Positions 10,366-45,494 of a DNA stretch of 64,000 nucleotides are shown here, one piece after another. How positions within the stretch are numbered: position 1 is the stretch's first letter; each line of letters starts with the position of its first letter. The notes under the pieces are model-generated. The model saw only the letters and a list, made by a program, of their open reading frames with translations. It had not been told where the DNA came from and made no database searches. This DNA comes from Octopus vulgaris (Eukaryota). A program made the translations under genes and the position numbers. The DNA lies in assembly GCA_951406725.2 (NCBI GenBank), contig OX597826.1, forward strand, positions 7,006,001 to 7,070,000, in the 5' to 3' direction.

Positions 10366-10542
10366 ACGTAGTTTCTCAGAGTGATTCAGCGTAACACACA
10401 TTGTAACAAGTCTGGCCCTATGAAATACAGTTAATACTCATTTTGGGGAGCTGAATGAATCGAAGCAACATGAAATGAGGTCTTTTGCATAAGGACATAA
10501 CGATTCTAATAGCCTAACCATTAAGCAACTGCAACATCCAGT

Positions 10543-10936
10543 AGAGGCGCAATGGCCCAATGGTTAGAGCAGCGGACTCGCGGTCGGAGGATCGCTGTTT
10601 CGATTCCCAGACCGGGTGTTTTGTGTGTTTATTGAGCGAAAACACCTAAAGCTCCACGAGGCTCCGGCAAGGGGTGGAGGTGACCCCTGTTGTGCTCTTT
10701 CGCTTCAACTTTCCCTCACTTTTTCTTCCTGTTTCTTGTCCCCTACTTCCTACGCAACCGCTGAGTTTGGATGCGCATTCATCCATCTGTCGATGCTCTC
10801 GGTGTCGGTGGTTGACCTGCTTTCTCTTCTGCGGGTCTTACGAATAGCAAAGGACCACGTTTCGGACTTCTCCCATCTTGCGAGCTCTGGGACGAAGACC
10901 GTTCGATCAACAGCAACAGCAACAGCAACTGCAACA
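10543..10936 (+). mobile_element. SINE family A with alternative 3' module ending in (CAACAG)n
   Basis: Family A head and body, then a distinct 3' region and a short tandem tail. Confidence 0.8.
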
Positions 10937-14307: not shown

Positions 14308-14928
14308 TTTTTGAAAGCCGTCTTAAATTGAAGACTTTTGAATACTCAGCCGTAAGGTAAGAATATTGGGGGTCTTGTAGGGACCTGCTGTACGTTGCAA
14401 ATTATTTTTACAAGGAACAAGTCCTCACTAGGCTCCAGTCTGCCGGAAGCTGAGTGAAAATATTATTCACTTAATTGTGAAAATTATTGGTTTGGTAGGC
14501 CAAACTTTTATTTGAAAATAGTGTTGTTCCTGTTAAGGTGTACCTAGAAGAAATTTGGAATGATTTCTTAACTATTTTACAGTTGTGTTAAATTTTGGCC
14601 GTAACGGTGAATTGAGAATTTTTTTGAAAATTGTTCTTGTGAATTCTAGTGGGCGTATCTCGCCAAAAAAAGAATAAGCCATTTGGATTACCTTTTTGGA
14701 TTACCTTTTTGGAGTATTATACAAAGGATTCCCTGTCTGTGCTATTTGTGAGATTTTTCCTTTACTTTTCCCTTCATCTATTATTTCCTTCTTTCTAAAA
14801 ATTTTTAGTTCATTCTTTTCATTACTTTAATTTCAGTTTCCTCCCCTCCCCTTTATTTTGTTTTATTTTTATTCAGTTTAATTTTTTGGCAGACTGTCTT
14901 TTGAACTACTTTTGAACTGTTTTTCGAC

Positions 14929-16198
14929 ATGGCAGAGAAGGAACTTAAAAAGAAAAACTCTGTCTTAGAGTGGGAAATTAACCCGCCTAAGCAATGGTTA
15001 AAAGATATGGAAGAGAAGACGATGGTACTTAGAACATATCCTAAAGTTCTTAATTCCATCACCGTCTTCCCAAAACAAGTTATAAAAAATGACTTTAAAG
15101 AACATTTGTCCTCTGTAAAATATATATCCCGTGGTGTCAAACATACAACCGTATGGTTGCTGTTTGACAACGAGGAAAAAGCTCGCCAGTTTGCGAGTCA
15201 GCCTTTAGAAGGCAAGGAAATCCTGTTTCTCCCGTCATATTGTGGAAGAAAATTAATACGAGCCTGGATATGTGGGCTCCCCCCGGACACTGAAGCGGAT
15301 TGGATTGAAGATACCATCCGACGGGGACTGGGGGATGGCGGGCTCGAGCTCTTAAATGTAAGGGTATTGCTGGCGGTCGATTGGGAAGGGTCAAAAGCGA
15401 TTTTGACCCTGTGGACTCTATCGGCCGCAACAGAACTGGTTTTTCCAGGTTTTTTGAAAATGGCTGGCTGCAGGCATCCGGTGATACTTGAGGGACGTCC
15501 CCCAAAGTGTCACTCGTGCCTGCAGCCAGGCCACATTAAAAGACTGCCCCCAGGACCATGGTAATGTCCTGGAACAGTCAGCAGATGCCACCTCCCCTAC
15601 CCGGTCAAAGGGAGAGGTGAATGTGGTCGAGGAGGCTTCAGCCTCCTCAACTCAAAAAGGATTAAAAAAGAAGAAGGCGGGCAACAATAGTTGCCCGCCG
15701 AAGGAACCTAAGGCTTCGGGAGGCGGGGAAGAGTCTCCGGACAAAGCGGAAGGGCTCCACTCTCCTGAAGTCAGGAAGAAAAGAAAAAAAAAGAAAGAAG
15801 AACGGGTCATCTCAGAAGGGAGATGATGTGCCGACTGCATGTCCCGAAGTTGTGCCACCCACGTTGGAAGAAACCACCCCCACCCTTAAAGATGATCAAT
15901 TAATTATCTTTTTCTACAAGAGCGGCGAGGTGGAAAAATAGTAGAAGAACTTAAAGAGACAGTAGATATGCCCGTCACACGGGATCTCGAATGGCCTCCG
16001 CAGATAGCTGTGGAGGTCATAAGGTTTCCCTTGTGGGAAAGGCTTAAAGGATTTGGGGAGGAGTGTCGCAAATGGCCGAGTGGCCCTTACACGACTTACA
16101 TGTCCTACATGAGTGAGGCATGGGAAATAGCGGGATACAGGAACTCAAGCGGCATTGAAGATAATGATGAATATATCGCTGGATATATCGAAGAGTAG
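14929..16198 (+). pseudogene. Frameshifted LINE ORF1 (gag-like, CCHC zinc knuckle, Lys-rich C-terminal region), about 420 aa reconstructed
   Basis: ORF 14929-15564 has EGRPPKCHSCLQPGHIK, with DCP continuing in the next frame (CX2CX4HX4C); further shifts near 15820 and 15940 link to ORF 15968-16198. Confidence 0.78.
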
Positions 16199-37305: not shown

Positions 37306-38663
37306 GCATCATTATAATTATAGTTTGTGTCTGATGATGTGCATTATCTCATCAATTAAACAACACAGCTAAAATATATAAACAAAGAATTAGAGAAAAA
37401 GAAATAAAAAGAAATAAAAAAGAAATAAATACGACCAAAAAAAAAAGAAATCAACATAAACTATATATTAAAAACAAAACAAAACAAAACAATTAACCAA
37501 ACTACTTTATACGAATATGAAAGGAAATTCACAAATGTTCACAATAAATTTAGCATATCCGGATGTAGTCAGTGACTTCATTATTTTAATCTGTGATTTT
37601 AATTACATTAATCAGTCATGCAAAATAGTATTATTGCACACAAAATTTTGCCATTTGTTCTACATTGACTTGACTATTCCTGTAGATTTTATTCCGGTTT
37701 CTGTTGCTCTCTTCAGTTGTTCTGTCTCCTATTACTGCTCCGTATCTAAAACATATATTTTGTTTTTGTTGTTTGAAGCTGCTGCCATACCGCTACCGTT
37801 ACCGCTACCGCCGCCGCTGCTATTTTCGTTGCCGTCGCTTTTATTGTTGTTGCTTCTGCTACTACTACTACTGCTACTGTTGTTGTTATTGTTGTTGCTG
37901 TTGCTAATGTTGATGATTGCTGGTTCTTTCTAACATCAACACAAACAACTGCACTATTATGTATATTTTTAATTGTTAATTTGCCATAGAAATGCGTTGC
38001 CCTTTCATGAGTAGTTGGAACTGAATATTCCGAAAGGTTATACGCGGAAAATGTAATTAAATGATAAATACAACTATATGAGGTAAATAAGTCCAATATG
38101 AATCCTTGGTGATTAGTAGAACGGGAATGCAAATTAAGAAAGTCTTGGAATGCTATGTGGTCACGATTCTAGAACCGTTTGGCTCGATCTAAAAGGCATT
38201 ACACTTGGGCGATTCACTGCCTACATAGTTTGACTTCAAATTCACTCGCGTACTCATGCTCACCTCTAGAAGAAAAATGTGCTACAGGAATACATATACG
38301 GAGAGAAAGAGAGAGAGAGAGAGAGACATAGACAGACAGACAGACAGACGGACAGACAGATCTTTTATAGTTTCTTTGTTCAGTCATTAGACTGCGACCA
38401 TTCTGAAAGTACAGTCTTCAATGGCTTAGTCAAAATAAATCGACCCTAGTACATTTTAAGCCTACCAATTATACTATCGGCTACTAATTTGCCGAACCGC
38501 TAAGTAGCAAAAACGTAAACAAATCAAAACCAGTTGTCAAGTGGTGGTGGATGACAAACACAAACTCAAAGATACACTAACATAGATATAAACATATATA
38601 TGCACATGCATGCATGAAGACATACACATGGAGTTAAACGCAGGTGTTATTCAACTCTTTATA

Positions 38664-38751
38664 CTTCCGACATATGTTTCGAAGAAAACATTGATATTAT
38701 TCCGGAGGGAATAATATGATGTAAAACAATGCAATCATCTCGTCAGGGGAA
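38664..38751 (-). ncRNA. Type I hammerhead motif, homolog of the 45181-45266 motif
   Basis: Minus strand: TTCCC-CTGACGA-GATGATTGCATTG...CTTC-GAAAC-ATAT-GT-C-GGAAG; flank ATGGAGTTAAACGCAGGTGT shared with 44911. Confidence 0.7.
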
Positions 38752-39105
38752 AAAGGGAAACAAAACACATTAATAAACCAATTTAACTGAATGTGATTAC
38801 TGCGTATATGATGAAGAGGAACGCTGGCAAGTTATTTTTTTAAAGAACCGTTACTAGTTTTAACGTCAGAGGCGATTAATAGAAAGACGAAGAGAAAGAA
38901 AGAAATTAACAGAAAATTAAGATTGGAGAAGTATAGTGCGATGGATGAATGGGAATGAAGCATAAAAGAGTGAAAATAGATATATGTGGTGGAAATGAAT
39001 GTAAGAAGAGAGTTAAAGGTCAAATTTTATAAATTGGTTGAAATTAATTATAGGAACTAAAGGTATGTTTTTGCCAATGTTTGCAACGATATATATATAT
39101 ATATG

Positions 39106-42427: not shown

Positions 42428-42866
42428 ATATATATGAAAAAACAAGTCAAAAATAGAAAATGCTAAGATAATTTTATAGTGAATCTTTCAGTACCGGTTT
42501 CGGTCATTTTGAGACCTTTTCAACTGTAACGATTAAATAATTAAATTTAGAAAAATTAGAAGAAAAGTTTTTTTAAAGGAATATTTCTTTAGTAGTGTTC
42601 AGATATGAGTGGCATTCTGCCTTTCTCTGACAAGGGAGTCAGAGAAAGGCAGAATGCCACTCATATCTGAACACTACTAAAGAAATATTCCTTTAAAAAA
42701 ACTTTTCTTCTAATTTTTCTAAATTTAATTATTTAATCGTTACAGTTGAAAAGGTCTCAAAATGACCGAAACCGGTACTGAAAGATTCACTATAAAATTA
42801 TCTTAGCATTTTCTATTTTTGACTTGTTTTTTCATATATATCAACTCGTGTGTTCCTTTCCACCCT
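42428..42866. mobile_element. Foldback element with 204-bp arms, 6-nt loop and unpaired ~25-nt tail, in (TA)n; PLE-like inverted pseudo-LTR
   Basis: 42428-42631 is the reverse complement of 42638-42841 with no mismatch seen by eye. Confidence 0.9.
42743..42780 (+). ncRNA. Minimal hammerhead motif with compensatory U3:A8 core (mirror copy at 42489-42526, minus)
   Basis: CAG-TTGAAAA-GGTC TCAAAAT GACC-GAAA-CCGG-TA-CTG. Confidence 0.72.
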
Positions 42867-42867
42867 T

Positions 42868-42909
<42 letters not shown>

Positions 42910-44284: not shown

Positions 44285-44585
44285 ACCGTGACCGCCCAGG
44301 CTATCAGATGTTGATACACATCGCTGGTCACAATGCGATTCGCATTGTTTTAGCCTTCAAATGACGCCACCCCGCTGGCTAAGCGATCAGGCGAACAGAA
44401 GAAAGAGTGAGAGAAAGTTGCGGCGAAAGAGTACAGCAGGGTTCACCACCACCCCTTGCCGGAGCCTCGTGGAGCATTAGGTGTTTTCGCTCAATAAACA
44501 CTCACAACGCCCTGTCTGGGCATCGAAACCGCGATCCTACGACCGCGAATCCGCTGCCCTAACCACTGGGCCATTGCGCCTCCAC
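44285..44585 (-). mobile_element. SINE family A
   Basis: Reverse complement of 11821-12110. Confidence 0.87.
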
Positions 44586-44869: not shown

Positions 44870-44896
<27 letters not shown>

Positions 44897-44903
<7 letters not shown>

Positions 44904-45450
44904 TAAAAAAATGGAGTTAACGCAGGTGTAATCAAATATTTTTACTTTCTACACATGTTTCGAAAATTCCACTGATACTATTCAAAAGAATAAATGGTAT
45001 AACCAATGCAATCTTCTCCTCAGGAAAGTGAAAAAAACGAAACTCGTCAATAAGACATTTTAGCAAAAAATGATGGATTTGTATAGCGATAGACAGAACA
45101 ATATTAATAGCGACTGTCTATCGCTATACAAATCCATCGTTTTTTGCTAAAATGTCTTATTGACGAGTTTCGTTTATTTCACTTTCCTGAGGAGAAGATT
45201 GCATTGTTTATACCATTTATTCTTTTGAATAGTATCAGTGGAATTTTCGAAACATGTGTAGAAAGTAAAAATATTTGATTACACCTGCGTTAACTCCATT
45301 TTTTTATTCATATTATTCAAAATATTCAACGTAAACACGAAGTTTCTACCTTTATAAACAAAGAGTTACAACACCTTTACTTGTGAGATTTTTGCTGCCC
45401 TGGTAACTATATATTTATTTTCCGTGTTAATTGTTAACAAGGTAAAATAC
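44897..45450. mobile_element. Foldback element with 200-bp arms (about 3 mismatches), 17-nt loop and ~135-nt unpaired tail, in (TA)n
   Basis: 44897-45096 is the reverse complement of 45114-45313. Confidence 0.9.
45181..45266 (+). ncRNA. Type I hammerhead motif with canonical core and long stem II (mirror copy at 44944-45029, minus)
   Basis: ACTTTC-CTGAGGA-GAAGATT...AATTTTC-GAAAC-ATGT-GT-A-GAAAGT. Confidence 0.8.
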
Positions 45451-45454
45451 ACTC

Positions 45455-45494
<40 letters not shown>

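What the first reader, a model, noticed from the sequence alone, without database searches (positions are those of the whole stretch)
44897..45450. Second ~200-bp-arm foldback with a canonical hammerhead, unrelated in sequence to the first
Seen: 200-bp arms with about 3 mismatches, 17-nt loop, ~135-nt unpaired tail, (TA)n flanks, and an HHR with intact CUGAGGA/GAAA core, 6-bp stem I and GUA site. A diverged homolog at 38664-38751 keeps the core while stems differ. Inference: the same architecture in an independent family points to a shared integration mechanism that produces inverted copies; the mismatches make an assembly artefact unlikely.
Basis: partly seen in the sequence, partly recalled or inferred. 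Interest (0 to 1): 0.7.

Follow-up and report, generated by a model that had tools for sequence, protein, structure and literature searches.

The report
Inverted Penelope retroelement end with hammerhead
This hairpin is two shortened, back-to-back copies of the end of a Penelope-like jumping gene lying between TA repeats, a known kind of insertion likely made by copying RNA from both target strands; the family is of some extra interest because it lacks the zinc-finger thought to aim it at TA repeats and its commoner lineage carries a change predicted to weaken its self-cutting RNA.

Summary
In detail: 200-bp arms with 3 mismatches, a 17-nt loop, (TA)n flanks and a type I hammerhead (GUA site, 6-bp stem I) in each arm. 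It is the 5'-truncated, inverted end of an endonuclease-bearing Penelope-like element (PLE). [quoted passage not shown] Inverted ends, an optional tail, hammerheads and (TA)n targets are published PLE features. The 200-bp arm is not a fixed feature: arms run 8-350 nt, and 36 of 70 inverted insertions form no hairpin. Insertions join one end at site A (45313) to one at site B (about 148 nt further) in 79 of 80 typed cases, often by microhomology; two-strand priming is the likeliest cause (inferred). The scan has already noted this rule on other DNA of this genome. Extras: the lineage is Hydra-like but lacks the CxCX5C linker and still sits in (TA)n; its tail is four times the published length; a U4C core variant outnumbers the intact core 492 to 283. 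Cleavage is untested. Interest 0.3.

The parts
44873..44900 (.). Left (TA)n flank, abutting end A of the inverted segment
44897..45099 (-). Inverted, 5'-truncated pLTR segment that starts at fixed end A
44944..45029 (-). Hammerhead copy in the inverted arm
45097..45099 (.). 3-nt microhomology (AAC) at the head-to-head junction; the two segments stop at nearly the same element position
45097..45463 (+). Direct, 5'-truncated pLTR plus tail, ending at fixed end B
45181..45266 (+). Type I hammerhead: stem I 45181-86/45261-66, core 45187-93, long stem II 45194-45248, 2-bp stem III with self-complementary loop, predicted cut after 45260
45314..45457 (+). Tail between ends A and B; in full copies it is 5' UTR, followed about 55 nt later by the ORF's ATG
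45462..45490 (.). Right (TA)n flank
38628..38790 (-). Older sister family of the same Hydra-like lineage: pLTR fragment with hammerhead
42428..42872 (+). The first foldback: inverted end of a Neptune-type PLE with a 38-nt tail and a U3-A8 minimal hammerhead-like motif; same architecture, unrelated sequence

Best explanation
It is a 5'-truncated, inverted insertion of a Hydra-like Penelope retroelement: two back-to-back pieces of the element's hammerhead-bearing end lie between TA repeats, likely made when both cut strands of the target primed reverse transcription at two fixed internal RNA sites. Shown: family membership, the full element (pLTR-tail-ORF-pLTR-tail), two fixed ends A and B, one of each per inverted insertion, variable inner ends, (TA)n flanks. 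Inferred: the element's nuclease cuts both strands of a TA repeat; one strand primes at A and the other at B; both cDNAs stop early and their 3' ends anneal by a few bases; repair fills in. A hairpin results only when the B-primed copy runs past A, and arm length is the shorter of the two overlaps. The hammerhead is carried along as part of the pLTR; it is predicted to cut poorly as a monomer and to need a dimer, and is probably not needed for insertion.
For: 3365 first-look candidates genome-wide, 40 scored, 95-97% identical. Upstream of copies lies an RT plus C-terminal endonuclease ORF; 3 of the 30 best loci have an uninterrupted 775-aa ORF; its model (pLDDT 82.9) matches telomerase TERT best in PDB (E 7e-10). 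End A is at +1 in 56 of 60 pairs. Of 93 head-to-head junctions 75 were typed A+B by script and 4 more on inspection, 1 A+A, no true B+B, 13 untyped. 36 of 70 pairs do not overlap and 34 do. 15 of 19 cleanly resolved flush or overlapping junctions have >=2 nt microhomology, null 20%. Arms share subfamily alleles at 47 of 54 minor-allele sites in 14 pairs. (TA)n flanks 29 of 30 B ends and 16 of 17 A ends, background 5%. In vitro, a Poseidon PLE cuts and extends both strands, starts at two internal sites that bound the tail, and inserts with a dead hammerhead (PMC11167929).
Against: No biochemistry on this family. Only 19 of 70 junctions could be resolved exactly; in the other 41 anchored ones divergence or extra bases stopped the match, and 10 had no anchor. 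8 of 34 overlapping pairs, this locus included, are near-symmetric (within 15 nt; 2.0 expected, p=3e-4), which independent truncation does not predict and fold-back synthesis does. One A+A insertion (L248) and one A+A hairpin in a complex locus (L045/046) break the rule. B-primed arms do not stop inside the tail more often than A-primed arms stop within 148 nt (57% vs 54% of 63), so simple one-RNA twin priming with a block at A is not supported. One versus two RNA templates is not resolved. No empty site was seen, so part of the (TA)n could be added during insertion.
Confidence: 0.8

Rival explanations
1. Fold-back (self-priming): one cDNA, or an antisense template, snaps back at a small palindrome and copies itself, which gives the inverted arm. 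Proposed for rotifer Penelope elements (PMC3846280). It may apply to the near-symmetric subset that includes this locus.
For: Excess of near-symmetric junctions, 8 of 34; here the two segments stop within a few bases of each other in an AT-rich palindromic stretch; both arms share the minority GUA allele.
Against: It cannot make the 36 of 70 insertions whose two segments do not overlap, nor those where the inverted arm is the longer one; it does not explain why the copy stops exactly at A and joins (TA)n.
Confidence: 0.13
2. A foldback or MITE-type DNA transposon with fixed terminal inverted repeats.
For: Long near-perfect arms and TA flanks at this one locus.
Against: Ends are asymmetric (A versus B), arm lengths vary from 8 to 350 nt, half of the insertions have no arms, and the sequence is the end of an RT-encoding element.
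Confidence: 0.01
3. An assembly artefact (fold-back chimeric reads).
For: No contig from another run spans this locus, so this exact hairpin is not independently confirmed.
Against: Three arm mismatches; dozens of loci obey the same A/B rule; inverted joints and the 45313-(TA)n end occur in contigs of two other runs.
Confidence: 0.02
4. A non-autonomous retrozyme (tandem hammerhead repeat replicating as circular RNA), or a host-selected hairpin RNA gene.
For: A type I hammerhead with a dimer-type stem III; a read-through transcript would fold into a very stable hairpin (-321 kcal/mol).
Against: No tandem monomers here; the sequence is the pLTR of a coding PLE; arm-specific changes average 2.4% (115 of 4705 sites, 34 pairs), as neutral decay predicts, with no sign of homogenisation.
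Confidence: 0.04

Closest known systems
Hydra clade of C-terminal EN+ Penelope-like elements, including Hydra-1_Obim (Craig et al. 2021, PMC8557442; passages, section 11 and supplement rows seen)
   Same: Unit under 3 kb, single ORF, RT then C-terminal endonuclease, DKT, no CCHH, CxxC-E and CxH motifs, hammerhead in the pLTR, (TA)n insertion.
   Different: No CxCX5C linker (Hydra-1_Obim has it); RWK reads RIRWL; long branch; tail 148 nt; 55-nt stem II; majority U4C core. It is not Hydra-1_Obim, whose hammerhead and protein differ.
Inverted 5'-truncated pLTR insertions with optional tail of EN+ PLEs (PMC8557442 Fig. 2 legend; Adineta Pen2a, PMC3846280 passages; anole Poseidon PAc, PMC11167929 parts 1-2 of 4)
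   Same: Head-to-head inverted copy, tail at one end only, two fixed ends, AT-rich target.
   Different: The published tail is 30-40 bp; here it is 148 nt (67 nt in a canonical Hydra family and 38 nt in a Neptune family of this genome).
[quoted passage not shown]
   Same: 6-bp helix I, 1-2-bp helix III with a small palindromic loop that suits a dimer, G10.1-C11.1.
   Different: Helix II is far longer; the commoner lineage has U4C.
L1 twin priming and dual priming (PMC2837659; passages)
   Same: Both target strands prime; an inverted piece is joined by microhomology.
   Different: In L1 the second site is variable and the pieces do not overlap; here both sites are fixed and half of the pairs overlap.

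Membership tests
EN+ Penelope-like elements | Telomerase-like RT in a single ORF | tested here: met
   775-aa ORF with YRDD; best structural matches are TERTs. Pfam gave no family, as for two other Hydra-like proteins and the genome's canonical Hydra ORF.
EN+ Penelope-like elements | GIY-YIG endonuclease | tested here: inconclusive
   SIY...YIG motif with R, E and aligned neighbours at the C terminus, but no Pfam hit, and the domain was not folded or searched on its own.
EN+ Penelope-like elements | Partial tandem forming pLTRs, inverted 5'-truncated copy, optional tail | tested here: met
   L031 and L232.
EN+ Penelope-like elements | Hammerhead in the pLTR, on the sense strand | tested here: met
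Hydra clade | DKT, RWK-type motif, no CCHH, CxxC and CxH around E/N | tested here: met
   SDKTGN, RIRWL (K replaced by L), CLLC..E, CKH.
Hydra clade | CxCX5C linker before the endonuclease | tested here: not met
   No cysteine in the linker in 22 of 22 loci where it was read (30 examined); 8 of 8 aligned relatives keep the cysteines, two with shortened spacing.
Hydra clade | Placement in the Hydra clade by RT phylogeny | tested here: inconclusive
   Quick tree only (careful search unfinished), 24 rows, no published Hydra sequence in it: the family forms a long-branched octopus group among CxCX5C-bearing relatives, apart from the Neptune family.
Hydra clade | Under 3 kb; insertion into (TA)n | tested here: met
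   Unit about 2.86 kb (L232); flanks.
Type I hammerhead ribozyme | CUGANGA, GAAA, NUH and three stems | tested here: met
   This copy. Between the two families one clear two-sided change in stem I (U-A to C-G) and several one-sided ones; 86% of cells paired against 31-51% in slid controls. Only two lineages, so covariation evidence is thin.
Type I hammerhead ribozyme | Self-cleavage | not testable with these tools
   No raw RNA reads were offered. 5' ends at the predicted cut site: see Tried and rejected.
TIR / foldback DNA transposon | Fixed symmetric terminal inverted repeats | tested here: not met
Non-LTR retrozyme | Tandem non-coding units, one hammerhead each | tested here: not met
   The sequence is the pLTR of a coding element; no tandem array at this locus.

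The most novel reading that the evidence does not exclude
This octopus lineage is a natural double test of two open ideas about Penelope elements. It lost the zinc-finger linker proposed to aim them at (TA)n yet still lands in (TA)n, so targeting lies elsewhere (the nuclease core, or pairing of the nicked TA strand with AU-rich RNA at A and B). And a lineage with a weakened hammerhead core (U4C) displaced the intact one and holds all three intact ORFs found, so self-cleavage is dispensable or even costly for spreading in the animal.
Probability: 0.4. Interest if true: 0.55.

Novelty: new variant of a known kind. Interest (0 to 1): 0.3.

Why it matters
The hairpin itself is an ordinary PLE remnant. 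The family is useful because how PLEs make inverted insertions, what aims them at microsatellites and what their hammerhead does are stated open questions (PMC8557442, PMC11167929). Hundreds of young copies give a strict one-short-end, one-long-end rule, and the family has intact ORFs, no linker zinc finger and a paired intact and U4C ribozyme, next to a canonical linker-bearing family in the same genome as a control.

Tried and rejected
Rfam: no hammerhead hit, only microsatellite-driven miRNA matches below the gathering score. Pfam on the family ORF and a PDB sequence search with a profile found nothing useful. No RNA holder listed as such; contigs of two runs guessed to be RNA cover the family but cannot show strand, level or cleavage. 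No contig spans the locus. Pile-up of 5' ends at the predicted cut site: 2 of 37 distinct ends within 2 nt (2.4 expected). That count merged three independent loci (L034, L069, L111) that share one junction exactly at the site, so the true count is about 4 of 39, but another position has 4 as well; a hint at most. Blocked one-RNA twin priming: no excess of stops inside the tail. Gene conversion between arms: no sign. Host gene context: none of 22 open frames of >=150 aa in the window looks like a host gene by eye, apart from one apparent retroelement fragment at 14905-15564; short exons were not sought. ARAGORN found no tRNA. The careful tree did not finish. Supplementary figures of PMC8557442, PMC4209133, PMC11167929 and PMC3088659 were not seen as figures and may bear on the linker, tail and U4C claims.

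Full report
Observation. The arms (44897-45096, 45114-45313), the three mismatches, the 17-nt spacer and the (TA)n flanks are as described. A type I hammerhead lies at 45181-45266 and is mirrored in the left arm. A strict descriptor finds only these two sites in the window, against 0.01 per shuffle. The constrained hammerhead fold is -17.0 kcal/mol against -18.1 for the free minimum. Stem III is 2 bp and, with its loop, self-complementary, the dimer-type arrangement described for animal hammerheads (PMC4209133, parts 1-2 of 4 read). Stem II is an unusually long 55-nt hairpin; Rfam gave no hammerhead match. The tail is about 144-150 nt.

What it belongs to. The right arm plus tail has 3365 first-look candidates in the 2.8-Gb genome; the 40 scored are 95-97% identical. 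Upstream of other copies the sequence runs into an ORF with RT motifs and a C-terminal SIY-YIG domain. L031 shows the whole arrangement: (TA)n, inverted partial pLTR, pLTR, tail, ORF, pLTR, tail, microsatellite. Three of the 30 best loci have an uninterrupted 775-aa ORF, whose predicted structure matches telomerase RTs best. Two Octopus proteins are among the three best of 31 protein hits and have the highest identity, so the host is likely an octopus. The motifs match the Hydra clade (PMC8557442 section 11) except that the CxCX5C linker is absent in 22 of 22 readable copies, while 8 of 8 aligned relatives keep its cysteines. The published Hydra-1_Obim is a different family that keeps the linker. 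I therefore file it as a Hydra-like PLE lineage, not as a full member.

Architecture across copies. There are two fixed ends: A (45313) and B (148 nt further in the reference copy). An exact A-(TA)n junction occurs 71 times and a 26-mer next to B 677 times. Of 118 distinct loci from three samples, 70 are inverted A+B pairs: 36 do not overlap and form no hairpin, 34 overlap, with arms of roughly 8-350 nt. The 200-bp arm is thus incidental. In the sample chosen by end B, 17 of 23 loci had an inverted A-ended partner within 1.5 kb (seven duplicate or re-fetched loci dropped). Over all fetched family loci, 93 head-to-head junctions gave 75 A+B by script and 4 more on inspection, 1 A+A, no true B+B and 13 untyped; one further A+A hairpin was seen. 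Where junctions could be resolved exactly (19 of 70), 15 show at least 2 nt of microhomology against 20% by chance. Arms agree at 47 of 54 subfamily-allele sites, so they come from the same source lineage; that does not tell one RNA from two. Eight of 34 overlapping pairs, this one included, stop within 15 nt of each other (2.0 expected, p=3e-4). Contigs of two other runs show the same end A and the same kind of inverted joints, which argues against an artefact, though none spans this locus.

Other families. The 38.7-kb homolog is an older sister family (about 90% identity, 2005 candidates) with a similar tail and the same linker-less ORF fragments. The first foldback at 42428 is a Neptune-type PLE with a 38-nt tail and a Pfam GIY-YIG hit. 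A canonical, linker-bearing Hydra family has two ends 67 nt apart and the same one-of-each pattern in the four loci where both ends were in view.

Mechanism. In vitro, the anole Poseidon protein cuts and extends both target strands, starts at two internal RNA sites that bound the tail, and does not need hammerhead cleavage (PMC11167929, parts 1-2 of 4). The simplest reading here is that one target strand primes at A and the other at B, both cDNAs are cut short, and their ends anneal. This step is inferred. Self-priming fold-back (PMC3846280) fits the symmetric subset but not the non-overlapping half. A block of the B-primed copy at A, as in L1 twin priming (PMC2837659 passages), is not seen. 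A search for Penelope with twin priming and inverted returned two papers whose titles and abstract openings concern other topics (listing only). The scan's earlier notes report the same short-end/long-end rule for other families of this genome; I tested it here on this family.

The ribozyme. Between the two sister families stem I shows one two-sided change and the stems several one-sided ones; 86% of cells pair against 31-51% in slid controls, but the outer part of stem II is partly unpaired in the sister family, and two lineages give little independent covariation. That alignment held no U4C copies. Genome-wide, the exact 24-mer with CCGAAGA (U4C) occurs 492 times and that with CUGAGGA 283 times. 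U4C copies look younger (0.8% against 1.3% from their group majority, 32 and 57 copies, subfamily-variable sites dropped); allowing for that by hand gives about 590 against 390. All three intact ORFs carry U4C. U4C is reported to lower activity considerably in vitro while a viroid carrying it stays infectious (PMC3088659, passage and section 8), so the variant is weakened, not necessarily dead. 5' ends do not clearly pile up at the predicted cut site.

Linker loss. (TA)n flanks 29 of 30 B ends and 16 of 17 A ends, against 5% background, although the linker proposed to mediate this bias (PMC8557442) is gone. No empty site was seen, so added TA repeats are not excluded. Searches (listings only) showed no paper on a linker-less Hydra lineage; that is a limited search. 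Other papers touched: bioRxiv 10.64898/2026.07.22.740005 (part 1 of 5) and PMC13282606 (passages), for context only.

Verdict. A real feature and an ordinary product of a known retroelement class. The family is a new variant (linker loss, long tail, long stem II, U4C majority) that makes some open PLE questions testable. Interest 0.3.

Noticed in passing
window 42747-42782 (and mirror): The first foldback's motif reads as a minimal hammerhead with the U3-A8 core variant (UUGAAAA ... GAAA ... GUA); its family is a young Neptune-type PLE (98-99% identical copies, 1462 candidates).
   Followed up: partly
L174-L203 (e.g. G000:C1:64218971-64220980): A young canonical Hydra family with dozens of uninterrupted ~727-aa frames, CxCX5C linker, compact hammerhead and two ends 67 nt apart; a ready control for the linker-less family.
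   Followed up: partly
L232 pLTRs: An intact-ORF copy whose two pLTRs share further hammerhead changes besides U4C (C11.1 to U, broken outer stem I pair), which suggests continuing relaxation in that lineage.
   Followed up: partly
L234: Upstream pLTR has CUGAGGA and downstream pLTR CCGAGGA: a possible intermediate on the way to the CCGAAGA lineage.
   Followed up: no
L034, L069, L111: Three unrelated loci share one identical ~100-nt mini-insertion whose inverted arm stops exactly at the predicted cut site and joins the tail by a 4-nt microhomology; L111/L112 holds it twice in tandem.
   Followed up: partly
L126/L127 (G000:C1:84.88 Mb): Two B-ended copies 3.8 kb apart in opposite orientation with identical outer flanks: a larger palindromic duplication or an assembly feature.
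   Followed up: no
window 10541-10728 and 44398-44585: Dispersed repeat pair in opposite orientation, 89% alike, probably a SINE-like element.
   Followed up: no
window 7167, 52292, 56398 (+) and others: Further loose CUGANGA...GAAA matches; some may be compact hammerheads of other families, but none passed the strict descriptor.
   Followed up: no
window 14905-15564 (+): A 219-aa open frame ending in a CCHC zinc-knuckle-like motif, probably a retroelement ORF1 fragment (judged by eye).
   Followed up: no
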